54,646 nucleotides of DNA, taken from an uncultured Mollicutes bacterium (lineage in GTDB: Bacteria > Bacillota_I > Bacilli_A > Acholeplasmatales > Anaeroplasmataceae). The position numbers were made by a program, and so were the translations under genes. The stretch spans positions 1-54,646 of the forward strand of contig CALCWU010000140.1 in NCBI GenBank assembly GCA_937905855.1, given 5' to 3'. The first letter of the stretch is position 1. The number at the start of each line of letters is the position of its first letter. Below the pieces are notes generated by a model. It did not search any database and was not told the DNA's origin. It saw only the letters and a list, made by a program, of their open reading frames with translations. This document shows, one piece after another, positions 1 to 53,708 of the stretch.

Positions 1-1
1 A

Positions 2-1948: not shown

Positions 1949-1953
1949 AAATA

Positions 1954-1992
1954 AGGTCAATTGTAAAAATAAAATTACAGTTGGCCTTTTTT
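1954..1992 (+). terminator. Rho-independent terminator after the ATPase gene
   Basis: A 10-bp stem (aggtcaattg / cagttggcct, 2 G-U pairs) with a 14-nt loop, followed by tttttt. It starts 6 nt after the stop codon. Confidence 0.55.
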
Positions 1993-2031
1993 GTTAATTT
2001 ATATAAAATAATATATAATTTTTAAAAAATG

Positions 2032-2060
2032 TTGACAATCAAGTTAAAAATAATTATAAT
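2032..2060 (+). promoter_or_regulatory. Consensus sigma-A type promoter (TTGACA-17 nt-TATAAT)
   Basis: TTGACA at 2032-2037, exactly 17 nt spacer, TATAAT at 2055-2060. It lies about 23 nt upstream of the GGAGG-preceded ATG at 2083 and overlaps the ORF-track start at 2029, which argues against that start. Confidence 0.6.
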
Positions 2061-2082
2061 ATTAAAAAAACAGGAGGAAATT

Positions 2083-2772
2083 ATGAAAAAAATTATTTAT
2101 TTATTATTAACAATGGTTTCAATATTATTGTATGTATTATCAATGCTTATCTATACACCAGTTAGTAGCTTTGTTTATTTTGGAATTTCATTTCTATTAA
2201 TTTTATTTGAGGTTATCTTTAATAAAGAGAAAAGAATTTATAATATTATAATACTTGCATCTTCAATGCTTATTTTAACAAAAGCTCATTTGATTTTTCA
2301 ATTTGGATTAATGTTTTATTTTATCTTTAAGCTTACTAAATCATTTACTACGCATAATTATCTAAAAATAGCATTAATATTTGGTTACTCATTATTAAGT
2401 GTTGGTTTTATTGTAATGCTTATTGGCTCTGTGATTTTACATAAAAATATAGTTATTCTTGGGGGAATAAATGAAATATGGCATTTTATACCTGCTTATT
2501 TTTGTTATTCGATGTTTTATTTTGTGATTGAGGCTAAAGATAATAAGATTATTAATTATCTATTTATGGCTATAGCTTTATTAACATTTTTAATTTGTAT
2601 ACCAATGAAGAAAAGCTATTCATATTTTAAAAATGGTAATTTAATGATGGTAATGGAGGATGCCTTTAATACTAATAATAATTGTGTGGTATGTAAAAAA
2701 GGCTTTTATACATTTGAAGAATTAGAAGCTAGAAATTGTAATGCTAATCAATTTATGAAGTTTTATAAATGA
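2083..2772 (+). CDS. Polytopic membrane protein of unknown function
   Basis: The ATG at 2083 is preceded by caGGAGGaaatt. The translation has about 6 hydrophobic segments and a Cys-containing C-terminal tail (NNNCVVCKKGFYTFEELEARNC). No family was recognised. Confidence 0.6.
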   Translation: MKKIIYLLLTMVSILLYVLSMLIYTPVSSFVYFGISFLLILFEVIFNKEKRIYNIIILASSMLILTKAHLIFQFGLMFYFIFKLTKSFTTHNYLKIALIFGYSLLSVGFIVMLIGSVILHKNIVILGGINEIWHFIPAYFCYSMFYFVIEAKDNKIINYLFMAIALLTFLICIPMKKSYSYFKNGNLMMVMEDAFNTNNNCVVCKKGFYTFEELEARNCNANQFMKFYK

Positions 2773-2773
2773 T

Positions 2774-2803
2774 AAAATCCAGTTCGATGAACTGGACTTT
2801 TTT
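2774..2803. terminator. Bidirectional terminator between convergent genes
   Basis: Perfect 8-bp stem tccagttc/gaactgga with a 3-nt loop, flanked by aaaa upstream and cttttt downstream. It sits between the 2772 (+) and 2802 (-) gene ends. Confidence 0.7.
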
Positions 2804-5800: not shown

Positions 5801-5912
5801 CCTTAACATTTTCTCCAGTAAATTCTACCTTAGCTTTATTATTATCCTTTCTACAACCAACTAGGGTTAAGGCAATTAAAATTGTAAGTAAAACATAATA
5901 TATTTTTTTCAT
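2802..5912 (-). CDS. Lipoprotein with M60-like (enhancin-like) zinc metallopeptidase domain, Ig-like/PA14-like middle region and discoidin (F5/8 type C, CBM32-like) C-terminal domain
   Basis: Lipobox signal MKKIYYVLLTILIALTLVGC. HEXXH motif GAIHEYNHHFQ (nt 4791-4805) is followed by GDEVTNNALN, matching the M60-like HEXXH...E pattern. The C-terminal NIIDGNQNTSYHS...LKLYGG...YVALSEINM resembles discoidin/CBM32. Confidence 0.75.
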   Translation of the reverse strand: MKKIYYVLLTILIALTLVGCRKDNNKAKVEFTGENVKVGQSFTILGETKRQEAIIADEGNRYPTYGTSLENITDEEKTNLINEANYLKSSSSTYDKMDEDGNLYLNDELLDRKLYKHTTALNNYYGTPDDNEAGVIKKIDINATRRGNYITGLYAPAGEVIKIELSDEDLIKTGGVKIEIGQYSQNNQLNNIWAKRDDFSRMPLMGNEMEITTKIGYAGSFLGGPIYVTPNNQCEFSITISNALEYCHFIYGLTTKEEFERLKNTSSPYFDLEVWDSSVRHSGPKKYVNLDYDNLMKISKLWLSISNISKQIPSGSAKDIGVTFIYDPFVAAGSAVAFVGRNWCNLPPSWMSESLDYEKFTTSGSWGAIHEYNHHFQRYGFNPGDEVTNNALNLLSYINYTNISANRPNLVSWNRYLDPKTSLTETLNQASKNETSSSLNTYADIIHTFGVDTFIKAAKAKNGAGGADNWYEALCEATGYNMEYYFSLINQNVSDELKAKYNGLPLYIPIALKEQTGRVINKNNIITVNPYPIKANADYTIDLDENLVLPSGFSYKINKVSKPANGKIKTNDNVITYTPNKTNSSGQINLELTITNKEIKYNNKQTIIFELQPKYMGIDATRYSYDKALYTSIDDAIENNFTGYTTSLNEQINKHFVNGIKNNEIYIYHGKIYMPNDGEYKIGVRTSKRSNTLLELGLNTSTYTDKINSLRTNPVDVNNDYLTYSVKKGDYIYFKMIIQSFDSDGFAELYGGYNELKTIDNSYLYNDLDYKPTSFEFNDAYPKEYLSNSYAIPLANQKIISYTNSYKEWDDNYKIENIIDGNQNTSYHSIKGKLITSEPFELTIDLGKSYLVNTLNITTYNGNETHSPKKLKLYGGEDLNNLGLINEYQDLTPTNRLIALSIKETKLRYYKIVIEETVTNRYVALSEINMALNTNGKLVNPSMASYYVTKNQSFSKDYELSTFGFIIKGNGSIVLNTTNKAFGIITKNQSSKIKITIDGKSEIVEFNNIYYLEFNDNKKIEIEILDNDLLIDSFIL

Positions 5913-7933: not shown

Positions 7934-9943
7934 GTGAAAAAAATTAGTTTTATTATTTTTATGTCACTAATGCTATTTTTAGGTATTAGTGCAGCTGCCA
8001 AAACTGAAGACTTATCATTTGATGAGTATACAGGTGAGGCTTTAAGCGATGATTATGTTGAAGAAAAAGAAGATGGAATTTCAACATGTGGAGCAATTAT
8101 TATTGATCCTGGTTTAGGTGGAGAAGATAATGATGATGTGTTTGAAATGAATGATACACTAGCAACTGCAACAAATATCAATTCATATTTATCATATGAT
8201 TCGAATAACAAATGCAAGTTTGTTAAATATTTGTCAATTGTAAGTCATTCTAATGGTAATGCTGATATAGATTGTTTTTATTTTACAAATTCATATAAAA
8301 ACAAATATTTTAGTGTAAGTGTTGATGTGCCGGATTTTTTTAAATATTATATTAGCTTATATAGTGTTCAAGAAACATCACAAGGAACAAAATATGTTTA
8401 TGTTGGTAATTCATCAACTGTTATGAATTACTCAAATTTAGAAATAGGAAGTTATGTTATAAAATTTAGTTCTAGAAATAACACACAATCTAATTATTGT
8501 ATAACTGTTTCATTAGAAAGACAAAATAGTATCCGAAATCAAGAAAATAATTCTGAAGCAAATGCAACAACAATATATGAAGGCATCGACAAGAAGATTT
8601 ATTCAAATACAGGAATTATGTTTTTAAAGTTTTATCCATCAAAAACTGGGCTTTATAGATTATCTTGGGATTATAGTAGTATAGAGAGTATTGAAATATA
8701 TGAATATATTGTAGTAGATAATTTAGTTTATACAGGAAAATGCAAAAAAAAATATAAAATGTATGATAATTATAGCGAAGTAAGTTTATTTCAAAATGAT
8801 AAAAATGCAGAAAGAAAAGCAGGATATGAGGGGGAACATCAATATTATATTTGCGCGAAATTAAAAAACAATGGTAAGTATTTTAAAATTTCATATAAGC
8901 AAATAACATTTATTGATAACACAAAAACAGTTGGTGAGAATACGCCTTTTGAATTGCTTTTCCCGGTTGATGATCTTTCAGTTTTCACAACAGTTCATGA
9001 AAAAAGTAATATTGAAGAAAATGTTTTGGAAACAATCATTTTTGATAAAATGACGCAAAATACAGATTATTTTAAAATAAGTGATTATAATAAAATATAT
9101 GCTGGTATTAATGCTGAATCTGCAATATATTGTAATAATTTAACAGAATCAGCATCAGGGGCTATGCATGTTGAATTCTATAGATATGCAACAATTGATT
9201 ATCTATATGGAGATGATGGTGATGGAGAAACATATATAACTGATGCTATAGTAAATTATATGAAGTTTGCTATTTGTGAAGATTTTTCTGGAAGGAATAG
9301 TTCTAATAGTATTGTAGTCTTGATGAACTATAAATATGATTATGTATATGATTTGAATTTATTGGCTTTAAATCAACTCACAAGTGATATTTCTTTAAGT
9401 AATTTTAAATCAATTGTTTTTTCTTCAATTTCATCAGATATTGTTGTTGGTAATTTTTCTTCTGTTGAAAATACAACAGACAAAATGCTAATAAGTAATA
9501 TTGAAAAAGAAATTCTTGAAGATACAATTACTGGTGTAATAGGAGCAACTTCTTCAATATTAGGTACTTTATATGAAACTATAATTTATGCTGATAAAAT
9601 AATGTATAGATTAAATATGTCTGAAAGTGATGAAAAGAAAGTTTTAAACAAATTACCATCTAAAACAAAATGTGTTAAAATTACTTCGAGTAATGGCACT
9701 CTGATGAATACTAATATTAAATATTCTACTATGGAAACACACGTAATTCCATATTTTCCGTTTCAAAATGAACTGGAAAATTCAATTGCCGATACGATGA
9801 TTTTGAATATAAAAACTAATGGAATTAATAGATTAGTTGAAGGCACACTAGGCTATATATTGCAATTTGATATTATGTTTACGAGCATTTCAGGAAAAGA
9901 TTTTAATTATACATTTGATTTTTCAAGAAATATGGAGGATTAG
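7934..9943 (+). CDS. Secreted protein with two N-terminal PPC-like (pre-peptidase C-terminal-like) beta domains and an unrecognised 340-aa C-terminal domain
   Basis: GTG start and signal peptide MKKISFIIFMSLMLFLGISAAAKT. Two units (about aa 68-195 and 200-325) each open with an E-x-N-(D/N)-(T/S)-x-x-x-A motif (FEMNDTLATATNI; QENNSEANATTI) and carry the DxDxYxF-like pattern (DIDCFYF) typical of PPC domains. The rest is unrecognised. Confidence 0.55.
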   Translation: MKKISFIIFMSLMLFLGISAAAKTEDLSFDEYTGEALSDDYVEEKEDGISTCGAIIIDPGLGGEDNDDVFEMNDTLATATNINSYLSYDSNNKCKFVKYLSIVSHSNGNADIDCFYFTNSYKNKYFSVSVDVPDFFKYYISLYSVQETSQGTKYVYVGNSSTVMNYSNLEIGSYVIKFSSRNNTQSNYCITVSLERQNSIRNQENNSEANATTIYEGIDKKIYSNTGIMFLKFYPSKTGLYRLSWDYSSIESIEIYEYIVVDNLVYTGKCKKKYKMYDNYSEVSLFQNDKNAERKAGYEGEHQYYICAKLKNNGKYFKISYKQITFIDNTKTVGENTPFELLFPVDDLSVFTTVHEKSNIEENVLETIIFDKMTQNTDYFKISDYNKIYAGINAESAIYCNNLTESASGAMHVEFYRYATIDYLYGDDGDGETYITDAIVNYMKFAICEDFSGRNSSNSIVVLMNYKYDYVYDLNLLALNQLTSDISLSNFKSIVFSSISSDIVVGNFSSVENTTDKMLISNIEKEILEDTITGVIGATSSILGTLYETIIYADKIMYRLNMSESDEKKVLNKLPSKTKCVKITSSNGTLMNTNIKYSTMETHVIPYFPFQNELENSIADTMILNIKTNGINRLVEGTLGYILQFDIMFTSISGKDFNYTFDFSRNMED

Positions 9944-39680: not shown

Positions 39681-42600
39681 CTACCAAGCTTTAGGCTTGT
39701 TATTAACATAACGCCAATAATTACCTGCTTTGCTTGGAGCTTCTTCACTATAATAGTAAATTTTTGCTCTTGTATAATATTCTTCCTTTTCAATATTATT
39801 AAATTCATCTAAGCTACCCTTATAATAAATTGTAGTATCAGATGATAAACCTAAACCATATTTACCAATATAGGTAATGGTATTTGGAAGGATTACTGTT
39901 GATAAATAGGTTTGAGCACCAAAAAATGCATAATCACATATAGATTCAACACCATCAGGAATAGTTAAATCTAACATTGATGTGATACTTGTGCAGGCTT
40001 CATAAGCAATAACCTTAGTATTAGGATTAATGGTAAATGATTTTGAATCATCAATAATATCCATTAATACTAAATATTCATTTTCACTATTTCCAAGATA
40101 ATAGCCATTTTCATATTCAGTGTAGTTAAGCTTTGGACAATTATTAAATACATACGCTCCTAGCTTCTTTATTGAGCTTGGAATAGTTATGTTTGTAAGC
40201 TTAGTATCATTTGCGAAGGCCATATCAGAAATTTCTGTAACAGTATTTGGCAATATAACACTTGTAATTTTACTGAAATATCTAAATTGATTTTCATTTA
40301 TTTTAGTTATTCCCTCATGTAATGTAAGTTCATTTTCCATTAAGACATTATCAATATAGAAATTATTAGTATTGGCAGCAGGAGTACTAGAAAGACTAAC
40401 ATTTGTCCACAAGGTCAAGCTACCTTCATAATAAATATTTGTAATATTAATGGTTGTAGTTCCCTCAAATTTTGTAATTGAGCTTGGAATTGTAAGAGAG
40501 TCGAGCTTTAAATAGTTAAGCTTTGATAGGTCGAAGATTGATAGATTATTTGGTAATGTAACATCACTAATTTTTGTTCCTTCAAAATAAATATCATCTA
40601 AATTAGATATAGAAGTAAACATAACATTTAGCCATTCATCAAAGCTACCTTCATAATATAGCTCGCGTTTTGATAAATTTTGATTATAGGTTATATCCTG
40701 TTTACCAATTTGAATGATATTTTTACCTACATTTATTATTTCTACATTTTCAAGATTCTTTAAAGCATCATTATAAATTATTCTTGTATTAGAATTAATC
40801 GTTATTGAAGTAGCAGCTACATCTACATATTCCATTAAGACATAATATTCATTAGTGTTTGTTTCTAAATATTTATTACCATCTTCATCTAGATTATAAA
40901 TAATATTATCACAATTAATAAAATTATTTTCAGAGATTTTCTTTAGGCTTTCACTAAATACTATATTTGTTAGACCTTGTAAGCCATAAAGCGTGTATGG
41001 CTTTATTTCCTCCAAATCAACATTAATGCTTGATGGTATTTCGCTATAGATGTCATCATTCTTTAGCAATAATGTAGCATTTGAATTTACTAATGGATTA
41101 GAATATTGGTTACTAAAACTAATGCTTAGCCACTGGTTGATATTACCTTCATAATAAATTGTTTGAATATTTGTATTATAGAAGGCATCAGCATTAATAC
41201 TTGTAATACTAGCTGGAATTATGACCTCTTTGATAGTGGTTGCTTTATCAAAGAATTTAGTATAGATTGTATTAGTATTATTACTAAATTCAACATGTAA
41301 TAGACCTGCTGGAATGGTCTTACCATCAAAATAATTTAATAGCTTCATTTGAGAGTTAACACCATTTAAATTAATTAATGAATTAAGTCCTGCAAGAGAG
41401 CTTGTGCTAAGTGTAGCTTCATTTAGGTTAAGGGTTGTAATATCTGAATCGACAAAATAATTTGCTGGTATTTCACCACTATTAATCGTTAATGTCTTAA
41501 GTGTTGCAGGAACATTAGCATTTTTAATAGCTTCCTCTAGAGTACCAGAATAACTATAACTCATAAATAATACCTTTAAGGAATTGATACCATTAATATT
41601 ATTAGCAAATGTTGGAGCAAACGGTAGAGTTAAGCTTTCAAGAGCTGTACAGCCACCAAAGGCAAATATTGCAATGCTATCAGCAGAAGGTATTGATAGG
41701 CTTCTTAACTGAACACAGTTTAAAAATGCTTCCTCACCAATTGTTGTAATATTATTATGGAAGGTAATATTTTCAAGCTTTGTAAGATTCATTAAGCCAC
41801 GATTTGCAATAGCTGTAGTACCTAAAACCTCAATTGTGGTTATATTTGCGGCAATATTACTAAATATAGCATTGAAATTACCATTATTTGCATTTTGACC
41901 AATAAAAGGTATTGTAATAGTTGTTACATAATTTGCATCAAAGGCTCTGCCAATGCTTAAAACATTTGTTGGAATATAAACATTTTGAGCCTTAAAGCCG
42001 TAGAATTGATAATTTTTGATAGATGTTATTTCTTCTGGAATAGTAATATTATCGATTTCTTCATTATTCATAAATATTTTTTCTGAGCCAAGAGCAGGAT
42101 TTGAATAAATAGATTCAAAATCAATATTACACCAATCAGCAATTGTGCCTTCATAATATAGCTTAGAGATATTTGCTTCATTAAAGCTTGCGTCAATGGT
42201 AGTAATGGTATTTGCTAAATATAGACTCTCTACAGTACTTGAAATACCACGATTTATTTCATCACCTATGATTTTTACTACCTTAAAGCTTGGAGTTGTA
42301 TCATCTAGCTCATTAGTGAATAAATTAAATAGATTGGCATTTTTAAATGGCATACTTATATTTGTGACATTATTTACTAAATAGAAGGCTTTACCTGCAT
42401 TTGTTAAATCTACATCTTCACTAATATTTATTGTTGTTAGGGAATTTAAGCCACTAAATTGATAGCTTGATAGATTTAAGCTAGTAATATTTAGGGTTGT
42501 AATTGTTTGATATTGATTATCAATATAGAAGTAGAAGTTATCTGCTACCATCATTGGATTTTGAAGCTCATTGTTAAATTCTAGCTTTAACCAATCATTG

Positions 42601-45600
42601 ACATTGCCTTTATAATAAATATTTTCAATTTTATTAGTTTGGTAATTTTCATAAAATTTAGCTGTACCATAGCCCTTAGCATAATTAACTAAGTATAGAT
42701 TTTTAAGGTTTGGCATTTGTGGCATAATTGAATTTAAGGCTACAAAATTAAGTGTTAAATCAACTACATTATCTAAAATAGGGGTAAAGCCATCAAGATA
42801 ATTAACACCATTTATTTCTAGCTTTGTTATTGTGTTTCCATCAAATGAATGCTCACCAGGATACTTTGTAGTTATAAGCTCAGTAATAGTTGTTATACCT
42901 AAGAATGCATAGTCTGTTATAGCATAATCTATATCTGTTAGATCAAGCTTTGTTGGCTGAGCATAGGAATCATTATCCTTAAAATATAGCTTAGCTACCT
43001 GATTAGTTGAATATGCTGGATGGGAATTTGCAGAATTAAATTTATATTTTACCCAGTCCTTAGCACAACCATCAAAATAAATATTCTCAATGGTTGTGTA
43101 ATTAACAAGTCTATCTGCAAAACCTTCAATTGTGTTTGCTAGATATAGACTAGCTATATTTAAATAATATAATGATTCATTAGCAAATGGCGTTGTACCA
43201 ACTGCCTTTACTGTATCAATACTATAACGACTACTATTTGTAATATTATCCATAAAGAAGTAGATTGCACCCTTATAACCAGTAGGTGTGTAAGTACAAA
43301 GCTTTGGAGATTCAAAATAATTAATATTATTACAATCTAAGAAAACATAAGGCTCAATAGTTGTAACAGATGTAGGGATTATAACTTTCTTTATTGATGT
43401 TATTTTGGCAAATTGATAAGAATATAAATAATCAATAGTATCAGGAATTATTAGCTCCTCTAATAATAGATATTCATCATTATTTTTATAATATAAATTA
43501 GAGCCTGTGGCTATTATTTCATTTTTATTATTATAATGAATATCCAAATAATTAGTTAATGTACCATCATAATAGATATTAGCTATTGTTGAATCACTAA
43601 AATCGGCACCTTCCAAGCTAACATCTTGGTTTAAATAAAGATTTTCAACCTTTTGATATGGCATTTTAACATTTATTTCAGCTAAATTTAAATATAGATT
43701 AGTAATATGAACACCATCATTATCATATAAATTTTTGTTTCCGTATCTAAAGATGTCCTTATAGCCAGGATTCTTTACGTTTGATGAAGGAGCAGTAATA
43801 ACTCTAAAATCGAAATTAGAAATTTTAAAGCTATTTATTGTTTTTAAGCTAATTGCATTTTGAAGAATAACACCAGTATTAGGATTAACCTCAAAATCGG
43901 TAGCATCCGTATTAATACCTATTAGGAACTTATAAGGATTGGAAATTGATTGAAGGTATTTACAGTTATTTTCTTCAAAATAAATATTAGCAGTAAGGAA
44001 TCCAAATGAATTATAAGTATAGCTAATATTATCAGGAAGAATTACCTTAGCATCGGTTTTAAGATCCTTGAAGAAGTAATCTGGCAATACTTCACCACTT
44101 GTAAATCTAATTTCTTCAAGATTTTTACCTAGTGTTCCGATATTTGTTAAATAAGTGTAATCACCAGTTAAAGGCAAAGATATTGTTTTTAATGCCGTAT
44201 TATTATTGCCACTTAGAATTACATTACCCATTTTTATAACATTATCAGGGATTACAAGAGATGTTATATTTAAAACATTTGTGAAGGCATTGTTATAAAT
44301 GTATTTAGTAGTATCCGCTACACTTGCATCGCCTTTAGCATTTGGATTAAATTTATAAAGGAATAGATAAGGATTATCTTTAGTACCAAAATAGTAGCCA
44401 TCGTTATAAAGAGTAAGAATAGATAAATCACTAAATGAAACAAATTCAAAATTGAAATCTGTTGGCTCACTAGTAAGGCTAAATGATGTTATTCCTTTAT
44501 AGCCATAAAATGAAGAGCTTGTAAGGCTATGAACCTCAAATGGAATTACAATATCGCTTGCAAGCTTATAAGAATCATTTTCTAAATAGTAGAATTTGCT
44601 AGTATAAGAAATAGGGTTAGTATAGCTCTTAAATTTAATATTACACCAATCAGTAAGGCTAGAATTATAATATAGCTCATAGTTATTATAGTTGAAGCAC
44701 ATACCTTCATTAAACTCTGTAACGCTACTATCAATAGTTATCTTTTTAATTGATTTAACATAATATAGGGCATTACTCTTGATGTTATCTTGATATAGGG
44801 TAATTTCTTCTAGTAATTCATAACTATCATCATTTTTAAGATACAAATTATAATGAGAGTTATTAGTAGAATTTGTTAAGATATTATGACTAATATTACA
44901 CCAATCATCAAAGCTTCCTTCATAATATAAGCTAGACAATTCAAGACCTGCAAGAGCATCCTTGGCAAATGTATTTAGTGATGCTGGTAGATATAAATTA
45001 ACAAATGTATAGCCCTTAAGGAAGTATGCTGGTATTTCACTAATATTTAATAGCTTAACATTTTTTAAATTATTTGGATAATATTTAAAGCTACTATTAG
45101 TATTACCAAATAGGGTATTAAAGCTATCTAGATTTGAAGCATCAATTGTTAGATTTTCTAAAACATTCGTATTAAAAATAATATTTGCCTCAATAGTATT
45201 TACCTTTAATATTGTTAAATTAACAAGACTAGGAAGATTTGCAAGAGCAAGAGAGGTGATATTATCCTCATTTGTAATTGTAACATCAGTTAAGGCTTTA
45301 AGCTCACTATTATCATTATTAAAGTAGTAGCCTAGGCTTTGATTAAATAATGATGGTATAGTAATATTTGTAATATTAGTACCTTCAAAGGCATTAGCAC
45401 CTAGTGATGTAACACTATTAGGAATGGTAATAGATGTTATAAGTGTATCCTTAAAGGCTGCCTCACCAATTGCTGTTACAGTATTTGGAATAGTAATTTC
45501 TTTAAGCTTAGTTCCTTCAAAAATGTAGCTAGGTATAGTTTTATAGGTTCCATTTATAGAAATATTTTCAAGATTTGTACAGCCACTAAATAATCCTTCA

Positions 45601-48600
45601 TATAAAGAATTTGTTGTTAGATTTATATCCTTAAGGCTTGTTAGATTAGTAAAGGCTCTATCAAGCATTTCACCACCTAAAATGGTAACACTTGTTAATG
45701 AGGTAGGGAAATAATATTTTTTTAGCTCACCATTGTTTGGCATCAAGGCTTCGTAGGTGTTTTCTTTTTCCTCATCTTGGAAATAATAACCTAGAGTTTT
45801 AATATTAGAATTATGATTATTACTAATATATGGAAGGGTAATGCTTGTAAGGTTAGTTCCTTCAAAGATGTTTTTACCTACTGAATTAGCGCTTAAAATA
45901 TGGATTTCTTCAACACCCTTGGCATTTAAGAAGGCCTTATCAGCAATTTCTAAATTATCATTATTTAAATTTAAAATATTGTTGATTGTAGCACCATTGA
46001 AGGCACCAGTACCAATATAAGTTAGTGAAGATGTATCATTGATATTAATAATTAAACCATCATTGCCGGTAAAGGCATTTTCGCCAATATATTCAATGTC
46101 TTCATTTAAATTAATATTAGTAAAATGACAATTATTAAAAGCATAGCCACCAATTTTTATTACATTAGCTAATGAAAATTCTTGAAGCTTTGTACAATTA
46201 CTAAAGGCATAGTGATTAATTATTTTTAAGGTATCAGGAGCATTAAATTTTTGAATGCTTGAATTCATAAAGGCTTTATCAGCAATTGTTGTCAATCCAT
46301 CTAAAATAGTTAAGTTATCAAGATTTGGCAAGCTTTTGAAGGTGTTGGTATTAATAATTTCAAGATGACCAATTGTTATATCAGTAATAGATTTGTAGCC
46401 ATCCTCACTATAGCTAAAGAAGAATTCATTGTAATCACTTGGTAATTCTTTAATTGTTACCTTAGTTAAATTATTGGGAATATAATAATTGTGATATAGG
46501 TAATAATCAACACCATAAGGATTAGGATTACGATATTGAATAGTTACAAGATAGCTATTTTGATTTTCATCCTTGGAGAATAAATCACCAAAATAGATAG
46601 AGCTTACAGAAGGTATTTTTATTTCACGAAGATTAATACAATCGTTAAATAAAGGAATAACTATACCTTCTTTATAATCTATTACTACATTATCCTCTAA
46701 AATGATCTTTTCTAGATATTTGCAGTCACTAAAGAATGAACGAGTAATTAAACCATTTTTAAGAGTAAAGCTCTTTAGGGTTTCTGGTAGATAATCCTTA
46801 AGGCTTGTTATTTGATAAAGTGAAGGTGTATCTGTATAGCTAGGATTAATTGTATAGTTAAATGGTAAGGTTAGTGATTCCATATTGTATGCATAAAAAT
46901 CATAAAGATAAATTATATAATCAGGAATTACTAAATCCTTAACATTACTTAATCTTAAGGAATTTTTAGCTATGGTTTTTGTATCAGGATGGAAATTAAT
47001 TTCTTCTAAGTCACTATCTAAGCATGTTAAATAGATTAAGTAAGGATTTTCTTCACTTCCCAAATATTTACCATTATCATAGATATTAACAATATTACTA
47101 TTTAGATTATTTAAAATTGTTTCGTCATCAAAGTAGCAGGTAGGATCATTAATATATAAGTGCTCAAGCCCCTTTAAGCCATATAATGAATTTTTAGTAA
47201 AATGGTTATAGCCTGTTATTGTCAATGTTTTTAAATTCTTAGGAATGTTATTTGCCTCAGGAGTAAATATACCATTATCATCATAGCTATTACCAAATAT
47301 ATAAGAAAAGTAATTTTTAGTATAAATGGTATTAGCTTCATTACCAATAAATGGTAAAACAATTTCCTCAACATCCTTAACTGCTTCATATGGGAAAGCA
47401 TTAAAGTGAATGGTTTCAACAGAATCAGGAATAACTAGCTTAGTTGGTAAATGCTCATAGCCGTAAAATGCTGAACTATAAATTGTTTTTAAAGCCTTAA
47501 AGCTACTAAGATCGATTATTACATTAGAATGAGAAAAGGCATAGCCTGCGATACTTGTTACTAAATCGTAATTAATGGTTAATTTTTCAAGGCTTGTTGT
47601 ATTAGAAAATGCTTTTAATTCGATTGAATTGGAGCTTAAAATATCAATTTCTTTTATTGTTGTTAAATTTTCAAAGGCATATCTAGTAGCATATGCACTT
47701 ATTTTAGTAAGAGTAGAAGGAATATAATAGGTTCCGGAAATGAATTTATCAACATTTTCTTTTGTGTAATAAATATTTTGTTTAACAGCAACGCTGTTTT
47801 CATATTCTAAGGTTCCAAATAAATATGATATTGGTAAATGATATTGCTCACTATAGCCTTCAGGATTTATATACATAAATTCATCAGTATAAATAGCTAA
47901 TTCATTAATGTTCTTACAACCACTAAAAATATTTTTACCAAGATAAATAACTGAGTTTGGAATAGAAACATAGGTTAGATTTAAGTTGTTGGCAAATGCA
48001 CCATCATCTATTCCGATAACAGGTAATCCATTACGAGTTGCAGGAATTATTAATCTATCACCAGTAAAATCACCAATTCCATTAACATAGTAGCTTTGTG
48101 AGTCGCTAGATGGTCTAAAGCTTAAGCCCTCAGATATTTCAGTTTTTCCACAAACCAAACAAACGCCATTTACATAATTATGCTTACCATAAACAGTTCC
48201 TTCAAAGGTTTCGTAGAAATTTTCAAATGTATAGCTATCCCAGCCATGACTTTCAGTTTGACAATCAACCTTAGTATCGGTTTTAACGATATTATAATCA
48301 TATGGATTTAAGACAGGTAATATTTTTGTTTTTTCATAGCCACAAAAATCACAAATCATTTTAATTGAACCAGTAGAATCATTAGTTGGAGCTAAGACTA
48401 GCTCATATCTTCCACTATGAGGAAGCATATCCTTATATTCATCTACATTATCAGGGTGCTCCAAACAAGCATGATAATGATAGTCCTCATTAAAGGACCA
48501 AGAGTCTTCATCATAGCTTGGAGTATGAGAAATATAGAAATAATCATATTCTATTTTACCACAATAGCATTCGCGGTATCTAACACCTTGTTCATATTCA

Positions 48601-49325
48601 TTTGTTGGCGTACTCATAATTATCCACTCGCCAAATTCATGGGGACCTTCCTCATTTTTCAAATTAAAGTGACCACAGGTGCTTGGATGCCAGTGAGTAT
48701 TATCATCATAGGCCCAATCAGGACTAAAAATATGAGTGTGAGTACCACGGGCAATATAACCACAAACACTACATTTTAAGGAATCATAGCTAAATGTATA
48801 GCCATCCTCAGTTACATATTCTAAATAATTTTCAAAAATATGATCTTCCTTAATAACGGCATCATCATGACCACAGGTGCTTGGATGCCAGTGTGAGTTT
48901 TCATCATGTACATATCCTTCATCAAATGTATGGGTATGAGAAGAGATTTGTAAATTTTCTTTTTGAACATAGCCACAGGTTTTACAGTTTCTACTTCTAA
49001 TACCTAATTCTAAATTATCCTGCCAAGAATTAAAGCTATGCTTAAAATAGGCAGATTTTGTGTCATGACCACATGTTGCCTCATGCCAGTGATAGGTATC
49101 ATTATAGCTCCAAGTACTACTATAGGTATGAGTATGGGTACTAGAGGTATCACTCTCATCACCTTTACCTCCTGTTGTAGAAGAACTTGAGCTGCTTGGA
49201 ATTATTTCACTAGGTACACTTACATCACTAGGAATGGAAGTATCATTTGGATTATTTCCACAGGCTCCTAAAAGAAATATTATTAATAAAGAATTAATAA
49301 TAACAAACAATTTGTTTTTACGCAT
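39681..49325 (-). CDS. Giant surface lipoprotein (about 3214 aa): Ser-rich linker, four His/Cys-rich modules, then BspA-type leucine-rich repeats (LRR_5-like) throughout
   Basis: The ATG at 49325 (GAAGGAA 8 nt upstream) gives the lipobox signal [22 protein letters not shown]. The TTG at 49382 lies inside the predicted promoter. There are dozens of LRR_5-like units, for example [48 protein letters not shown] and [41 protein letters not shown]. Confidence 0.85.
   Translation of the reverse strand: [3214 protein letters not shown]
48333..49139 (-). repeat. Four tandem modules of about 66 aa, each rich in His and Cys (putative metal-binding), within the giant protein
   Basis: Shared pattern: (T/S)H(T)H-x-(Y/F)...W.(Y).D...HWH..(T)CGH...(10 aa)...H.F...(about 20 aa)...C..CGY. 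Modules span aa 82-139, 148-209, 214-275 and 285-349. At DNA level gaccacaggtgcttggatgccagtg is identical at 48671-48695 and 48869-48893, and a diverged copy lies at 49067-49091. The spacing is exactly 198 nt. Confidence 0.8.
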
Positions 49326-49372
49326 ATTAAAATTTCCTTCTTTCCCATTTAAAATCGTAAATCTATATTTAA

Positions 49373-49401
49373 ATTTTACCAAAAAAATCTTTTGTTTTCA
49401 A
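49373..49401 (-). promoter_or_regulatory. Promoter of the giant LRR gene
   Basis: On the minus strand: TTGAAA, 17 nt, then extended -10 TGgTAAAAT. The predicted TSS lies downstream of the ORF-track TTG at 49382, which supports the ATG at 49325. Confidence 0.5.
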
Positions 49402-49461: not shown

Positions 49462-50709
49462 ATGAAAAAAATCAATTATTTTATTGCAATTATTACGCTC
49501 TTATTTGTAATTACGGCTTGTGGGAATAATAAAAATTCAATTATTCCAGCAGAGACTACTAATATAAAAGAATCAAGTAGTTCGATAAGTTCTAGTATTT
49601 CTTCAAGTAGTAATAGTATAAGCTCGGAAGCTAGTTCAAGTAAAACATCTAGTACTACTACAATACCAAGTAGCTCAAGTGATTTAAATATCAGCTATAG
49701 TATTAAAGAAATTTTAACAATAGGCTCTACCTTAAATGAAGGAGAGGTTGGAATTAAAGTAAATTTTGATGGTATGTATTTGAAGCTTATAACTGATAAT
49801 ATGGATAAGCTAATGCTATTTGCTGATGATAGTGCTTATATAAAGGTTAGAGTTAAATCAGGTGATTTTACTGACTATTTAAAAAATAGATATTTAAATT
49901 GTTATTACAATGTATTAGGTAGTGTAACTAAAAACAATAATCAAATAGAAATAGCTTATGAAAAAATCGAAAATATAACATCAACACCAGAAGCCTTTGA
50001 TTTTACTAATTTAACGAAAAAACGTAATAGTATTGGTGAGGTTTATGATGATATTAAAAAGGTAAGTCTTACCAACAAGAGAAATGGTGTAGGCGATATT
50101 GTTACCTTTAATGGCGTTGTTATAGCTACTGATCGTTCTGATTCTAATAGTAAGGCAGTTTTGTATGATAACAAAAATATAATAACTATAATATCTGAAA
50201 AAAAGATTTGTGATGGCTTCACAGATCTTGATAAGGAGTTTATTGTTACTGGAATCATATCAATAAAAAATGGCGCACCTGCGGTATTACTTTTAGATTT
50301 AAAATCAGCTCAAAAAACAATTAATATTGATTATAGCAATGCAAAAGCAGTTAATCCATCATATTTTGCAGGCTGGTATCACCTATCAAATAATATTAAA
50401 GATCCAAGCTATGATGATTTTTCTACTCTTTATTTAGTATCAGGATATATTAATATAGATGATAGTAGAACAAATGCTTATTATTATGGAATGACTGATA
50501 ATAGTAACAATACATTATCAGATACAGGAATAAAAACCTCTATTAAAGGTATTTATTTAATGAATCATTTAAATGTTAAAAGTAGCATATTGTCTGATTA
50601 TTATATGAATGAAATAAAGGTAAGTATGTATTGCTCATTATATCAATTTGATTCTCAAAATCATGGTTGGAAGGCATTCCCAATTGAAAGTACAATTAAA
50701 TCAATTTAA
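49462..50709 (+). CDS. Lipoprotein with Ser-rich linker and beta-rich body, unknown function
   Basis: Lipobox MKKINYFIAIITLLFVITAC followed by GNN, the same residues as after the lipobox Cys of the giant protein. Linker ESSSSISSSISSSSNSISSEASSSKTSSTTTIPSSSS. Divergently transcribed from the giant gene. Confidence 0.65.
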   Translation: MKKINYFIAIITLLFVITACGNNKNSIIPAETTNIKESSSSISSSISSSSNSISSEASSSKTSSTTTIPSSSSDLNISYSIKEILTIGSTLNEGEVGIKVNFDGMYLKLITDNMDKLMLFADDSAYIKVRVKSGDFTDYLKNRYLNCYYNVLGSVTKNNNQIEIAYEKIENITSTPEAFDFTNLTKKRNSIGEVYDDIKKVSLTNKRNGVGDIVTFNGVVIATDRSDSNSKAVLYDNKNIITIISEKKICDGFTDLDKEFIVTGIISIKNGAPAVLLLDLKSAQKTINIDYSNAKAVNPSYFAGWYHLSNNIKDPSYDDFSTLYLVSGYINIDDSRTNAYYYGMTDNSNNTLSDTGIKTSIKGIYLMNHLNVKSSILSDYYMNEIKVSMYCSLYQFDSQNHGWKAFPIESTIKSI

Positions 50710-50710
50710 C

Positions 50711-50753
50711 AAAAAAACTCTATTGGACATTTTATATCTAATAGAGTTTTTTT
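50711..50753. terminator. Bidirectional terminator
   Basis: An 11-bp stem actctattgga/tctaatagagt (one mismatch) with A7 upstream and T7 downstream, between convergent gene ends. Confidence 0.65.
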
Positions 50754-52152
50754 ATGATGTATATATTTTTTTGAAGGTATTATATATTTTAAATAATAAA
50801 CATTTTTTTGACTTCAAATAGGTCACTAAACTTTCATACTCCTTGGGATTGTTTATAATATCTTCAGTTTTAAATGAATATAAAAGTTCATCAGGTGAAT
50901 CGATATCAATGTTTAATTTTTTTAGCCAATTTTTTCTTGCGGTATCTGTTTTCATACGTTCAAGCTTTTGTAAAATCTCCGTTTTGGAAATTGAGTTTGT
51001 TCCTAGAGTATAGTCATCTGTGAAATAATAAAATGCATCACATGATGGTAAATCAAGTGGATAATTAGTTAATGAAATGAAAGAATCACCAAAAATCTTG
51101 GCTAAAACAAGCTGAAATATCTTATCACCTATAAACATAAAAGCTGTCTTGCCATAATTAATTTTTGGAAACATGGTCTTTAAAAAATACCAATAATCCA
51201 TTGTTTTATTAAAATAAGGATGTAGGGCTGGTTTAATAACATATTGAGTCAAACGAGTATAATCCATTTCATAAAGTAAGAAAAAAATATCTTCGTTAAA
51301 ATTAACGTATGTAAATGAAAAATCTTCGTCGCGTCTAAACCATTCATCAACCTTAGGATATTCAGCTATAGATAATGATTTAAAATAATTAGCGGTGAAA
51401 TATTCTTGATATGATCTATGTAGAAAATTATATTTGCCATCTTCAAGATAAAACAATCCTAGATTGTCCTTTAAATCCACTATAAAATCATCAGCATTTA
51501 CTTTTCCTTTAAAGGATGTTTCGTTTATTGTTTTTGTTATATCGGCAATAGAAAAAGAATAATCTTCATTTGTTGAGGCTCTAAAGCAAAATTCGGATAA
51601 TAAATTAATGAATTGAACCTTTTTTAGACTTGTAGCAAATTTCTTATTTTTGTAGCCTTTTATTTTATCATGCTCCTCATATAATACCTGAAAGCTTTGA
51701 TCATAAAATTCATAGGTCTTTGAGGGTATTTTTCCTTTATTGATAAAGATCATAAACATAATTGTCAATAACAAAGGATTTGAGGCGATACTTTTATTTG
51801 TTTGAAATTCTCCATTTTTTAAAATTTCAATAAATTCTTTCTTTTTTGATGTTGGAAAATTAGAAAATTTATCAATCAATTTGCAGGCTGATTTTATAGT
51901 TAGTCTAGCTAATTGGATGTTTTTAAATTTGTTTAAGCACTCACTTGCTTCAGATGGTCTTGATGCTGTTATAAAATAATTTTTAGGATATTTAAATGAA
52001 AGTTCATTTAGTTCATCAAAAAAATTATCTCTTTGGGTTATTCTTATTTCGTCTAGACCATCAAATAATAATAAAAATCCACCTTTTTTTAAGTCATTTA
52101 AAAATTCAGAAAGTTCTATTTCCATATATTGCAAAATAGATGAGTATAGCAT
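50752..52152 (-). CDS. C-terminal part of a NACHT/STAND-like P-loop NTPase (Walker B onward); probably the downstream fragment of a frame-disrupted gene
   Basis: Walker B FLLLFDGLDE (nt 52048-52077), ITASRP, SNPLLLTIMF and FLHRSYQEYFTANYF are NACHT-type motifs. No SD precedes its ATG, and its frame stays open for 7 codons upstream of the ATG, overlapping the end of the upstream ORF. Confidence 0.65.
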   Translation of the reverse strand: MLYSSILQYMEIELSEFLNDLKKGGFLLLFDGLDEIRITQRDNFFDELNELSFKYPKNYFITASRPSEASECLNKFKNIQLARLTIKSACKLIDKFSNFPTSKKKEFIEILKNGEFQTNKSIASNPLLLTIMFMIFINKGKIPSKTYEFYDQSFQVLYEEHDKIKGYKNKKFATSLKKVQFINLLSEFCFRASTNEDYSFSIADITKTINETSFKGKVNADDFIVDLKDNLGLFYLEDGKYNFLHRSYQEYFTANYFKSLSIAEYPKVDEWFRRDEDFSFTYVNFNEDIFFLLYEMDYTRLTQYVIKPALHPYFNKTMDYWYFLKTMFPKINYGKTAFMFIGDKIFQLVLAKIFGDSFISLTNYPLDLPSCDAFYYFTDDYTLGTNSISKTEILQKLERMKTDTARKNWLKKLNIDIDSPDELLYSFKTEDIINNPKEYESLVTYLKSKKCLLFKIYNTFKKIYTS

Positions 52153-52157
52153 CGTTA

Positions 52158-53063
52158 CTAAATTTTGTCTTCCTTAATAAATTGTCTTACAGGTATATAC
52201 ACAGGAACTAAGTTTGTTTTTTCATTTTCGTTTAAATTATTCATAAGATCATAGGAAAACAAGAATTTTAAAAATAATGATTTACCAAAACCTGCTGGTG
52301 CGCTTATTGATGTATATTTTCCAAAGGTTTCAATATATTTTTTTGTTGAAACATCCTCACCTGAAATACTATGCTTTCCATTTTGACTAAATGTTGAACA
52401 ATAATTATTTAAATCAGGAGTTACATAGATGTCATATAAATTGATAGGTTCATTATTATAAATTATAGTTTTGATTAAAATAGTATCATTAACGGCATTT
52501 TCATAATAAGGAAGATATTTTTTTAGGATTGGTTTGTTAGTATCTAAAAATAAATCAGTCATATCCTTTTGATAGAGCGTTTCAAGCTTAATAATATCAT
52601 CATCTAAAAAAGGTTTGTTTATATTACATTTAGTATATTTGACAACGTAAGTAATTAAATAAGCTAGATATTTATCAAAGCTGAAATCTAATATATCATT
52701 GATTGTGACTTTTTCATTTTCAAAAATAATATTTTCTTTGTTGGAACTTTTATCATCTACAATTATCTTATTAATTATATATTTGATTTTTTGATTTATT
52801 TCGTTATTGTTGAACACATCTAAAGTCTTTTTGGTTCTTTCTAAAATTGTTTGCTTATCTAGTTTTTTTGCTGTTTCTACAAAAAGAGAGTTGTTAAGAT
52901 TTCTTTTGGCGTGAGATAGCTCATATGCAAAGTCACTATCAAACAAACGACTAAATTCGGGATTAATAATAGATAATAAATTACCATTAATATTTTTCAT
53001 TGTGTTAATGCTTTTATAAAATCTTATGAAAATTTTCAAAACTGTATTATAATTTAAATTCAT
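52158..53063 (-). CDS. N-terminal part of the NACHT/STAND-like NTPase: about 200-aa unknown domain plus Walker A
   Basis: Strong SD (GGAGG 7 nt upstream of the ATG at 53063). Pre-NACHT motif PINLYDIYVTPDL and Walker A ISAPAGFGKS (nt 52278-52301). The ORF ends in TAG TAA only 39 aa after the P-loop. Confidence 0.65.
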   Translation of the reverse strand: MNLNYNTVLKIFIRFYKSINTMKNINGNLLSIINPEFSRLFDSDFAYELSHAKRNLNNSLFVETAKKLDKQTILERTKKTLDVFNNNEINQKIKYIINKIIVDDKSSNKENIIFENEKVTINDILDFSFDKYLAYLITYVVKYTKCNINKPFLDDDIIKLETLYQKDMTDLFLDTNKPILKKYLPYYENAVNDTILIKTIIYNNEPINLYDIYVTPDLNNYCSTFSQNGKHSISGEDVSTKKYIETFGKYTSISAPAGFGKSLFLKFLFSYDLMNNLNENEKTNLVPVYIPVRQFIKEDKI

Positions 53064-53132
53064 CTTAATTCCTCCCTTTATATAGAAGATTATAGCATAT
53101 TTTGTCGAATTAATAAATAGGTTAAATGATTT

Positions 53133-53249
53133 CGCCTACTTTTTTGAAAAAACCGCCTAGTTTTAATAGATATTAAAAAAAGTTAATAGAAAAAATGGCG
53201 CAGCTACAATGTAATTGGCTTCGCCTATTTTTATGCCTACAATGCCTAG
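53133..53249. repeat. Cluster of five (C/T)GCCTA(C/G/T) direct-repeat motifs in the divergent intergenic region
   Basis: cgcctac at 53133, cgcctag at 53154, cgcctat at 53222, tgcctac at 53234 and tgcctag at 53243. The first two flank the palindrome ttttttgaaaaaa. gtcgaat recurs at 53104 and 53249. These are GC-rich words in an otherwise very AT-rich spacer. Confidence 0.5.
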
Positions 53250-53408: not shown

Positions 53409-53708
53409 ATGGAGAATATAAGCATAACAATAATAGTTGTCCTCTGTTATATGATAGGTGAAATATATAAGCTGATATTTAAAAAAGAAGAATCTTATAA
53501 ATATATTCCAATGGTATTATCAATAAGTGGAGGAATAATAGGTGTAATAATGTATTACACAAATAAAGAAATAATAAATGCTTCAAATGTATGGTCGGCA
53601 ATGCTAATAGGAATAGTAAGCGGAACATCATCAACAGGAGCTAATCAAATAATAAAACAAATATTTGGAGGAAGCAATGGAGCTAATAGTAAGAAAAAGA
53701 ATAGCTAG
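53409..53708 (+). CDS. Small 3-TM membrane protein, phage-holin-like (Hol44/holin_5-like by recollection)
   Basis: 99 aa with three hydrophobic segments. The third ends in GIVSGTSSTGANQIIKQIFGG, followed by a charged tail (NSKKKNS). This resembles the G-L-(A/S)-A-T-G-x-x-Q-x-x-K-Q ending I associate with Hol44-type holins. Confidence 0.45.
   Translation: MENISITIIVVLCYMIGEIYKLIFKKEESYKYIPMVLSISGGIIGVIMYYTNKEIINASNVWSAMLIGIVSGTSSTGANQIIKQIFGGSNGANSKKKNS

What the first reader, a model, noticed from the sequence alone, without database searches (positions are those of the whole stretch)
50752..53063. NACHT/STAND-like NTPase split exactly between Walker A and Walker B by a single frame change in a homopolymer
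The 301-aa ORF ends 39 aa after a P-loop (APAGFGKS). The next ORF starts 25 aa before a NACHT-type Walker B (LLLFDGLDE). The combined spacing of about 74 aa is what an intact NACHT domain needs. On the minus strand the junction reads GAA GAC AAA ATT TAG TAA CG ATG. The downstream frame is already open 7 codons before its ATG, and that ATG has no SD. Restoring one nucleotide in the A4/T3 run (plus-strand 52160-52166) would give ...FIKEDKNLVTMLYSS... and one protein of about 770 aa. Bacterial NACHT/STAND NTPases are established anti-phage or conflict proteins with an effector-NTPase-sensor layout. Here both flanking domains are unrecognisable, and the gene sits in an accessory island. The break could be a pseudogene, a phase-variable switch, a sequencing error in a homopolymer, or a genuine two-piece system.
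Basis: partly seen in the sequence, partly recalled or inferred. Interest (0 to 1): 0.7.

Follow-up and report, generated by a model that had tools for sequence, protein, structure and literature searches.

The report
Frameshifted bacterial NLR-like defence gene
The two adjacent ORFs are one 770-residue bacterial NACHT (NLR-like, presumed anti-phage) gene broken by loss of a single A, and in related strains the same gene has been knocked out independently at least eight more times, so this is a recently inactivated gene, not a two-part system.

Summary
The minus-strand ORFs 52158-53063 (301 aa, Walker A APAGFGKS) and 50752-52152 (466 aa, Walker B LLLFDGLDE) are two pieces of one gene. They have A5 where the window has A4 (52163-52166). 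The protein is a NACHT NTPase: its best structural matches are NLRC4, NOD2 and NLRP3 (E down to 1e-11). Its C-terminal domain is a divergent SNaCT14-type sensor domain. Its N-terminal ~170 residues form a helical domain with almost no relatives. The break lies inside the nucleotide-binding core, and the second ORF has no ribosome-binding site. Among about 15 alleles I found nine independent presumed loss-of-function mutations: four ±1 indels in A-runs, one 8-bp duplication, three nonsense codons and a Walker A K261N change. A tenth genome keeps only a 3' remnant of the gene. About 97 kb of flanking genes in the same contigs are unbroken. dN/dS among alleles is 0.10-0.26. Verdict: a recent loss-of-function allele of a known kind of defence gene that is repeatedly lost in this species. 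It is modestly interesting and not a new system.

The parts
50752..53063 (-). Whole disrupted bNACHT gene (770 codons when one A is restored)
   Evidence: Colinear with intact 770-aa P0001/P0107 at 95-97% aa identity in syntenic loci
52158..53063 (-). Fragment 1, 301 aa: N-terminal helical domain, then the first strand, P-loop, helix 1 and strand 2 of the NACHT nucleotide-binding domain; ends at a premature TAG
   Evidence: this exact protein is in public collections as P0096
50752..52152 (-). Fragment 2, 466 aa: Walker B onward (rest of the NBD, helical and winged-helix domains, SNaCT-like C-terminal domain). No Shine-Dalgarno. NCBI calls it from a later Met (457 aa, P0100)
52163..52166 (-). 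A4 run, the site of the 1-nt deletion. It is A5 in all 13 other alleles fetched from other strains (L001-L010, L014-L016)
52158..52160 (-). Premature stop TAG created by the frameshift
52278..52301 (-). Walker A / P-loop APAGFGKS (K261)
   Evidence: G258, G260, K261 and S262 are nearly invariant in the 53-sequence family alignment
52048..52074 (-). Walker B LLLFDGLDE (D335, D338, E339)
   Evidence: D335, D338 and E339 are invariant in the family alignment
51313..52331 (-). NACHT module (about aa 245-584 of the repaired protein), interrupted by the frameshift
   Evidence: AlphaFold2 model with pLDDT 83.6; Foldseek top hits NLRC4, NOD2, NLRP3, E 1e-11 to 1e-8; family profile hits NLRP3/NLRC4 sequences in the PDB
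50755..51312 (-). C-terminal SNaCT14-like domain (aa 585-770), the presumed sensor
   Evidence: Aligns with the SNaCT14 region of P0026; hhalign probability 98.8%, E 5.6e-17 against SNaCT14-bearing homologues. The Pfam HMM itself does not reach significance on this protein
52548..53063 (-). N-terminal ~172-aa helical domain of unknown function (presumed effector position)
   Evidence: No Pfam, PADLOC or NCBIfam hit; no PDB fold match, best E 1.4; one hit in 1.84 billion representative proteins, at the same position of a colinear 780-aa homologue
53071..53097 (-). Shine-Dalgarno AAAGGGAGG (53071-53079) and extended -10 TGcTATAAT (53089-53097) of the gene
   Evidence: conserved in all 14 related loci. 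The promoter is inferred from consensus only

Best explanation
This is a single gene for a 770-aa bacterial NLR-related protein. It has an orphan helical N-terminal domain, a central NACHT NTPase and a C-terminal SNaCT14-type domain. In this strain it was recently inactivated by loss of one A from an A5 run at codon 300. The frameshift places a TAG two codons later. It separates the P-loop (strand 1, helix 1, strand 2) from Walker B and the rest of the nucleotide-binding domain, so neither piece can form an NTPase core. The second piece has no ribosome-binding site. The event is one of many. In the population of this low-GC Clostridium sp., intact alleles shaped by purifying selection coexist with at least nine independently damaged alleles and one deletion remnant. 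That is the pattern expected for a costly, dispensable defence gene that is repeatedly lost. By homology with bNACHT01 and bNACHT11 (inferred, not shown here), the intact protein would bind phage proteins through the SNaCT domain, oligomerise through the NTP-bound NACHT module, and cluster its N-terminal domain to stop growth or kill the infected cell. Shown here: gene identity, the fold, the nature of the lesion, recurrent independent lesions, and long-term purifying selection. Inferred: anti-phage function, the activity of the N-terminal domain, and that cost or autoimmunity drives the losses.
For: An intact 770-aa orthologue with the predicted junction sits in syntenic loci. The window differs by one missing A. 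The NACHT fold is supported by the Pfam match spanning the junction, by homologues scoring above Pfam threshold, by profile hits to NLRP3/NLRC4, by an AF2 model with pLDDT 83.6, and by Foldseek matches to NLRC4/NOD2/NLRP3 at E 1e-11 over about 480-530 columns. The junction (aa 300/301) lies between strand 286-291 and the Walker B strand 330-335. Modelled alone, the 301-aa piece loses the NBD strands. The allele catalogue is: window A5>A4 at codon 300; L002 K282*; L005 A7>A6 at codon 240; L006 A7>A6 at codon 180; L007 E464*; L008 S752*; L009 8-bp tandem duplication at codon 93; L010 A7>A8 at codon 65; and P0099, which equals P0097 plus K261N only, in three assemblies. L011 keeps only the last ~140 nt. 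As a control, 97.5 kb of flanking coding sequence in the same 10 loci has no stops or frameshifts, against 8 in 23 kb of this gene. dN/dS is 0.10-0.26 for pairs with at least 10 synonymous differences. The window allele has 6 synonymous and 2 nonsynonymous private changes, so the break is recent. The same A4 allele appears on a separate short-read MEGAHIT contig. No other gene in the 54.6-kb window looks frameshifted. [quoted passage not shown]
Against: No reads were available, so a consensus error at A4/A5 cannot be formally excluded. The second contig with A4 is 100% identical over 4,976 nt and may come from the same sample. The loci were partly chosen because their proteins were short, so the fraction of broken alleles (about 13 of 31 contigs) is rough, and 13 of the 28 members of the main protein cluster (cluster 1) were not listed. 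For homopolymer indels alone the flank control has little power: 3 changes in about 90 A7 or T7 run instances in this gene, against 0 in about 43 in the flanks (my count). S752* removes only 19 residues and may not abolish function. No experiment links this protein to phage defence. PADLOC gives no hit.
Confidence: 0.8

Rival explanations
1. Sequencing or assembly error: the real genome has A5 and an intact gene, and the contig consensus dropped one A.
For: The lesion is a 1-nt change in a homopolymer in a metagenome-assembled contig. The only other contig with A4 is 100% identical over 4,976 nt and may be the same sample. The allele has almost no private nonsynonymous change, as an intact gene would.
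Against: A run of 4-5 bases is short for short-read consensus errors, and a MEGAHIT contig with different ends carries the same A4. No other gene in 54.6 kb looks frameshifted, including a 9.7-kb ORF. The same gene is broken in other samples by nonsense codons, an 8-bp duplication and K261N, which are not homopolymer errors.
Confidence: 0.1
2. Reversible ON/OFF switching: slippage at A-runs scattered through the gene toggles expression of a costly defence protein, as in a contingency locus.
For: Four of the eight truncating alleles are ±1 changes in A5 or A7 runs, in both directions (A7>A6 twice, A7>A8 once, A5>A4 once). The gene has the highest homopolymer density in the window, 3.9 runs of 7 or more per kb against 0-2.4 elsewhere. 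It has somewhat more such runs than synonymous-codon shuffles give (9 against 5.5, about 7% of shuffles reach 9).
Against: There is no long tract: the longest run is 7, and the window's site is A5. Each site varies in only one strain, so no single tract is polymorphic across strains. Five other lesions are not reversible by slippage (three nonsense codons, an 8-bp duplication and K261N), and neither is the L011 deletion. The enrichment over shuffles is not significant and follows from the low GC and Lys/Asn/Phe-rich composition.
Confidence: 0.08
3. A genuine two-piece system, or recoding: the two ORFs are both translated and reassemble, or ribosomes or RNA polymerase slip at AAAA to make the full-length protein.
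For: The stop and the next ATG are 5 nt apart (TAG TAA CG ATG), so some termination-reinitiation is conceivable.
Against: The arrangement is found only in this strain. Intact alleles and all more distant relatives are single ORFs. There is no Shine-Dalgarno before the second ORF. The cut lies inside the NBD core. C AAA ATT is a poor slippery site, and no stimulatory element was looked for or seen. A4 is too short for efficient transcriptional slippage (established knowledge, not tested here).
Confidence: 0.02

Closest known systems
Bacterial NLR-related proteins with a SNaCT C-terminal domain (bNACHT01, bNACHT11; Kibby et al. 2022 bioRxiv 10.1101/2022.07.19.500537; Robbins et al. bioRxiv 10.1101/2024.12.17.629029)
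   Same: Central NACHT NTPase with canonical Walker A and B. A short non-repeat C-terminal domain related at the profile level to Pfam SNaCT14. One polypeptide. Located in a variable region, with relatives common on prophage contigs.
   Different: The N-terminal region is a helical domain of about 170-245 aa, not the ~45-aa extension with an MDPIT-like start described for bNACHT11. The Pfam SNaCT14 and PADLOC models do not detect this protein directly. The host is a low-GC Clostridium, not an enterobacterium. No phage data exist. I could not verify that Pfam 'family 14' equals the paper's clade 14, and bNACHT11 (PDB 9ORF) did not appear among the fold hits.
Eukaryotic NACHT NLRs (NLRC4, NOD2, NLRP3, NAIP5)
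   Same: Best structural matches to the model, over the nucleotide-binding, helical and winged-helix domains. The family profile hits their sequences.
   Different: 11-16% identity. No LRR sensor and no CARD/PYD effector.
Firmicute NACHT + SNaCT14 proteins of 800-950 aa (e.g. P0019 Anaerocolumna sedimenticola, P0026 Clostridium homopropionicum)
   Same: 29-32% identity from residue ~175 to the C-terminus, including a conserved pre-NBD motif.
   Different: They have longer, different N-terminal regions and a SNaCT14 domain that scores strongly in Pfam.
NCBIfam NF058535, NACHT antiphage protein EruA
   Same: Weak local match over the NACHT core (E 2e-5).
   Different: 21-23 bits against a cut-off of 1000, and the model is 1318 positions long. 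This protein is not a member. I found no paper on EruA in the library.

Membership tests
NACHT NTPase (STAND class; Pfam PF05729) | Walker A GxxxxGK[ST] and Walker B hhhhDGhDE, about 65-75 residues apart, in one polypeptide | tested here: met
   APAGFGKS and LLLFDGLDE, with K261 to D335 = 74 aa in the repaired protein. Spacing is 64-74 in 78 relatives. In the window allele the two motifs sit on different ORFs because of the frameshift.
NACHT NTPase (STAND class; Pfam PF05729) | Pfam NACHT HMM at or above the gathering score | tested here: inconclusive
   The repaired protein scores 19.4 bits and P0001 scores 20.6 bits, against a cut-off of 26.7. Its 31-37% identical full-length relatives P0003, P0004 and P0007 score 35.6-39.2 bits.
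NACHT NTPase (STAND class; Pfam PF05729) | NBD, helical domain and winged-helix fold like that of NLRs | tested here: met
   AF2 model with pLDDT 83.6 and pTM 0.72. All top-50 Foldseek matches in the PDB are NACHT NLRs, led by NLRC4 (4kxf) at E 1e-11 and NOD2 at 9e-11, over 460-550 aligned columns.
NACHT NTPase (STAND class; Pfam PF05729) | Conserved sensor-1 arginine after strand 4, and a conserved histidine in the winged-helix domain | tested here: inconclusive
   R369 is invariant, and H549 (in HRSFQEYF) is nearly invariant, in the 53-sequence alignment. Their structural equivalence to the NLR residues was not checked residue by residue.
bNACHT with SNaCT sensor domain (Pfam PF22720 SNaCT14) | C-terminal SNaCT14 domain | tested here: met
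   The Pfam HMM gives no hit on this protein. However, the C-terminus aligns with the SNaCT14 region of P0026, and hhalign of aa 585-770 of the close family against SNaCT14-bearing homologues gives probability 98.8%, E 5.6e-17 over 164 columns. This makes it a divergent member.
bNACHT with SNaCT sensor domain (Pfam PF22720 SNaCT14) | No repeat-type (LRR, TPR, WD40) sensor | tested here: met
   No repeat families in Pfam. The model shows a compact alpha/beta C-terminal domain.
bNACHT11-type (clade 14 as described by Robbins et al.) | Short N-terminal extension of about 45 aa with a conserved MDPIT-like start acting as effector | tested here: not met
   Here there are about 245 residues before the P-loop, starting MNLNYNTVLK, with a helical domain of about 170 aa.
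Anti-phage defence system | Protection against phage when expressed; abolished by a Walker A mutation | not testable with these tools
   Inference from homologues only. PADLOC gives no hit.
Phase-variable contingency locus | A long simple-sequence tract whose length varies among strains at the same site | tested here: not met
   The site is A5. Among the 15 fetched alleles only the window and the identical L013 have A4; the other 13 have A5. The longest run in the gene is 7. Each of the other slipped tracts differs in only one sample.
Phase-variable contingency locus | Enrichment of homopolymers beyond what composition predicts | tested here: inconclusive
   9 runs of 7 or more, against 5.5 expected from synonymous-codon shuffles; 7 of 100 shuffles reach 9.
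Split (two-gene) STAND system | Two ORFs conserved as separate genes, each with its own translation signals and a complete fold | tested here: not met
   Relatives are single ORFs. There is no SD before ORF2. The cut lies inside the NBD.

The most novel reading that the evidence does not exclude
Inactivation of this NLR-like gene is selected, not merely tolerated. The protein is costly or self-toxic in the current setting, for example through a resident trigger. Strains escape through any available knock-out, and the A-run frameshifts serve as a reversible, multi-site OFF/ON reserve. The K261N allele points this way: it is the only amino-acid difference from an intact allele in 770 residues, and it hits the catalytic lysine.
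Probability: 0.15. Interest if true: 0.55.

Novelty: new member of a known kind. Interest (0 to 1): 0.3.

Why it matters
For annotation, the two ORFs should be merged and flagged as one frameshifted NACHT gene. The intact alleles (P0001, P0107) give the working sequence. For biology, the locus offers a small natural series of knock-outs of one bacterial NLR-like gene within one species: frameshifts, nonsense codons, a P-loop lysine change and a deletion, alongside intact alleles under purifying selection. Such a series could be used to measure the cost and benefit of an abortive-infection-type sensor in a gut-type anaerobe. The family also has a long N-terminal domain with almost no relatives, in the position where NLRs carry their effector. 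That makes it a candidate for a new effector activity. None of this changes what is known about how bNACHT proteins work.

Tried and rejected
Searches that gave nothing useful:
- PADLOC gave no hit on either ORF or on the repaired protein.
- NCBIfam gave only a weak EruA match far below cut-off, and I found no paper on EruA.
- A single-sequence search of the PDB gave nothing meaningful.
- A fold search with the 301-aa fragment model (pLDDT 70) gave no match below E 1, so the N-terminal domain stays unassigned.
- An exhaustive search with the N-terminal 172 aa gave one hit, a colinear homologue.
- A scan of genome contigs with P0001 found no relative in any species-representative genome.
- Two exact-word scans of JGI metagenome contigs found nothing. 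I therefore could not get an allele sample free of selection on protein length.
- Literature searches for the sample and assembly accessions and for 'bNACHT' with 'pseudogene' found nothing, so the habitat is unknown.

Readings considered and rejected:
- Two-gene system and programmed recoding: see the rival explanations.
- Other split genes in the window as a sign of a poor assembly: the candidate pairs 25141/25508, 16239/17041, 14254/15095 and 5953/2802 are distinct, complete genes.

L011 (CP091735.1) appears to carry many frameshifts in ordinary genes such as the GGDEF gene and the Rnf subunits. I used it only for the large deletion, not for indels.
Full report
**1. The observation**

The two minus-strand ORFs exist as described: 52158..53063 (301 aa) and 50752..52152 (466 aa). 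The junction reads GAA GAC AAA ATT TAG TAA CG ATG. Walker A APAGFGKS lies at window 52278-52301, 39 residues before the stop. Walker B LLLFDGLDE lies at 52048-52074, 26 residues after the second ATG. In the repaired protein the P-loop lysine and the Walker B aspartate are 74 residues apart. The second frame is open for 7 codons before its ATG (*GRQNLVT|M), and that ATG has no Shine-Dalgarno. The first ORF has AAAGGGAGG and an extended -10, TGcTATAAT, both conserved in all related loci.

**2. It is one gene**

Neither ORF alone matches Pfam NACHT. The conceptually repaired 770-aa protein does, and the match (aa 256-388) spans the junction. It is weak: 19.4 bits against a gathering score of 26.7.

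A search of 5.8 billion proteins returned P0001, which is 770 aa, 96% identical and covers 100% of the query. Its locus L001 is syntenic, with the same ~415-aa neighbour and the same giant LRR gene. At the DNA level the only indel across the gene between the window and L001 or L002 is one A: the window has A4 at 52163-52166 and the relatives have A5.

More distant relatives are also single ORFs:
- a colinear 780-aa protein at 39% identity;
- 78 of 80 relatives on viral contigs, which have both motifs in one open frame; one of the two exceptions is cut by a contig end.

**3. What the protein is**

- *NACHT core.* Homologues at about 31-37% identity score above the Pfam NACHT threshold. A profile of 53 family members hits NLRP3, NLRC4, NLRP2, NLRP5 and NLRP7 sequences in the PDB. 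An AlphaFold2 model of the intact orthologue is confident (pLDDT 83.6, pTM 0.72). All its top-50 matches to solved structures are NACHT NLRs: NLRC4 at E 1e-11, NOD2 at 9e-11 and NLRP3 at 6e-9, over about 460-550 columns.
[quoted passage not shown] The C-terminus of this protein aligns through that region. A profile-profile comparison of residues 585-770 gives 98.8% probability and E 5.6e-17. So the C-terminal domain is a divergent SNaCT14-type domain, although the Pfam HMM does not detect it directly.
- *N-terminal domain.* The first ~170 residues form a helical domain with no Pfam, PADLOC or NCBIfam match and no fold match. There is a single relative among 1.84 billion representative proteins, at the same position of a colinear homologue.

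According to Kibby et al., bacterial NACHT proteins defend against phage, Walker A lysine mutants lose defence, and SNaCT is the fast-evolving presumed sensor. [quoted passage not shown] This triggers heptamerisation, and a short N-terminal extension then causes cell death. The protein here shares the NACHT + SNaCT layout but not the short N-terminus.

**4. What the frameshift does**

In the model, residues 300/301 lie between strand 286-291 and the helices that precede the Walker B strand 330-335. Fragment 1 keeps strand 1, the P-loop, helix 1 and strand 2. Fragment 2 has Walker B, sensor 1 and everything after it. Modelled alone, fragment 1 loses the NBD strands. With no ribosome-binding site before fragment 2, a functional two-piece NTPase is very unlikely.

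**5. The unexpected part: recurrent inactivation**

The 90%-identity clusters around P0001 and P0002 contain many short members on long contigs. I fetched their DNA and aligned it to the intact allele. Nine different presumed loss-of-function lesions appear, each in a different strain or sample:

| Allele | Lesion |
|---|---|
| window | A5>A4, codon 300 |
| L002 | K282* (AAA>TAA) |
| L005 | A7>A6, codon 240 |
| L006 | A7>A6, codon 180 |
| L007 | E464* (GAG>TAG) |
| L008 | S752* (TCA>TAA); only the last 19 residues are lost |
| L009 | 8-bp tandem duplication, codon 93 |
| L010 | A7>A8, codon 65 |
| P0099 | K261N (AAA>AAC) |

P0099 differs from the intact P0097 at that one residue only, the Walker A lysine. 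Its gene sequence is identical in three assemblies.

A complete MAG chromosome of the same or a sister species (CP091735.1, Clostridium sp.) matches the window at 91-93% nucleotide identity. It retains only the last ~140 nt of the gene.

Intact alleles (P0001, P0097, P0098, P0101, P0107, P0110) account for about 18 contigs and damaged ones for about 13. This ratio is rough. I chose loci partly by protein length, and 13 of the 28 members of the main cluster (cluster 1) were not listed.

**6. Controls**

- *Flanking genes.* In the same 10 loci, seven flanking genes totalling 97.5 kb of coding sequence each align full-length in a single frame with no stops. The NACHT gene has 8 disruptions in 23 kb. 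So the contigs are not generally error-ridden. The three nonsense codons alone would be unlikely under a uniform rate (0.19 cubed, about 0.007). For A7 indels alone the control has little power.
- *Selection.* dN/dS among alleles is 0.10-0.26 for pairs with at least 10 synonymous differences. The gene was therefore kept functional over the time in which the alleles diverged, and each lesion is recent. The window allele has 6 synonymous and 2 nonsynonymous private changes.
- *Homopolymers.* The gene has the highest homopolymer density in the window (3.9 runs of 7 or more per kb). This is only marginally above what its own amino-acid and codon composition predicts: 9 against 5.5, with 7% of shuffles reaching 9.
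- *Second assembly.* The window's A4 allele also occurs on a MEGAHIT contig with different ends. That contig is 100% identical, so it may be the same sample.
- *Rest of the window.* No other gene in the window looks frameshifted.

**7. Interpretation**

The best-supported reading is a recent, real loss-of-function allele of a single bNACHT gene, in a species where this accessory gene is repeatedly knocked out or deleted. This fits the general picture, from established knowledge and not tested here, that abortive-infection-type defence genes are costly and turn over quickly.

The rivals rank as follows:
- A consensus error at A4/A5 remains possible until reads are inspected (about 0.1).
- A dedicated phase-variation switch is not supported. 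There is no long tract, no shared polymorphic site, and there are many irreversible lesions. Occasional reversion of the A-run frameshifts cannot be excluded (about 0.08).
- A two-piece or recoded protein is very unlikely (about 0.02).

**8. Context**

The gene lies in a variable region:
- Its GC content is 25.3% against 28.9% for the window.
- It is absent from all species-representative genomes scanned.
- It is flanked by a Hol44-type holin, a Pol-beta nucleotidyltransferase and, in L014, an RHS/YD toxin gene.
- It sits next to a 3233-aa LRR protein gene that is itself present in some strains and absent in others.
- Relatives are frequent on prophage or viral contigs.

**9. Verdict**

The thing itself is a broken member of a known family, so novelty is low. 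The population-level series of independent knock-outs and the orphan N-terminal domain are the only points of wider interest.

Noticed in passing
window 53138-53248 (minus strand), upstream of the NACHT start: There are five copies of TAGGC[AG] (at 53248, 53239, 53227, 53159, 53138). Two of them lie 21 nt apart, just upstream of the extended -10, so this may be an operator. Ten independent Logan contigs all begin at exactly this point, 98-101 nt upstream of the ATG at (AAA)CTAGGCGG, so the assembly graph branches there in every sample. I have no explanation for this.
   Followed up: partly
window 39681-49382 (-): The 3233-aa LRR_5 protein gene is present or absent depending on the strain. It is present in the window, L001-L003, L009 and L014. 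It is absent in L005-L008, L010 and L011, where only its first ~34 codons remain in L011.
   Followed up: partly
window 53409-54555 (+); L014 1-2655: A Hol44-family holin (99 aa) overlaps the start of a 296-aa protein with a C-terminal Pol-beta-type nucleotidyltransferase domain and an unassigned N-terminal ~200 aa. In L014 a 1739-aa RHS/YD-shell toxin gene lies immediately beyond them. The window and the NCBI MAG contig behind L003 both end right at that point.
   Followed up: partly
L014-L016 (gene positions 3001-5313, 1638-3950, 98-2410): A full-length allele has the Walker A lysine changed to asparagine (K261N, AAA>AAC). This is its only amino-acid difference from the intact allele P0097. 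The gene sequence is identical in three separate assemblies.
   Followed up: yes
L011 (CP091735.1) 8214-8348, and 1-4042: Only the last ~43 codons of the NACHT gene remain, a few kb downstream of an Rnf operon. Several ordinary genes in this record (the GGDEF gene, the Rnf subunits) appear fragmented, which suggests a frameshift-rich long-read assembly.
   Followed up: partly
window 49462-50709 (+): The 415-aa neighbour has a lipoprotein-like N-terminus and a serine-rich low-complexity stretch. Its length varies in frame among strains (397-421 aa). It has no Pfam match.
   Followed up: no
window 2802-5912 (-): A 1036-aa secreted-type protein has M60-like (enhancin) peptidase and F5/8 type C domains. 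This is typical of mucin-degrading gut bacteria and is a hint about habitat.
   Followed up: no
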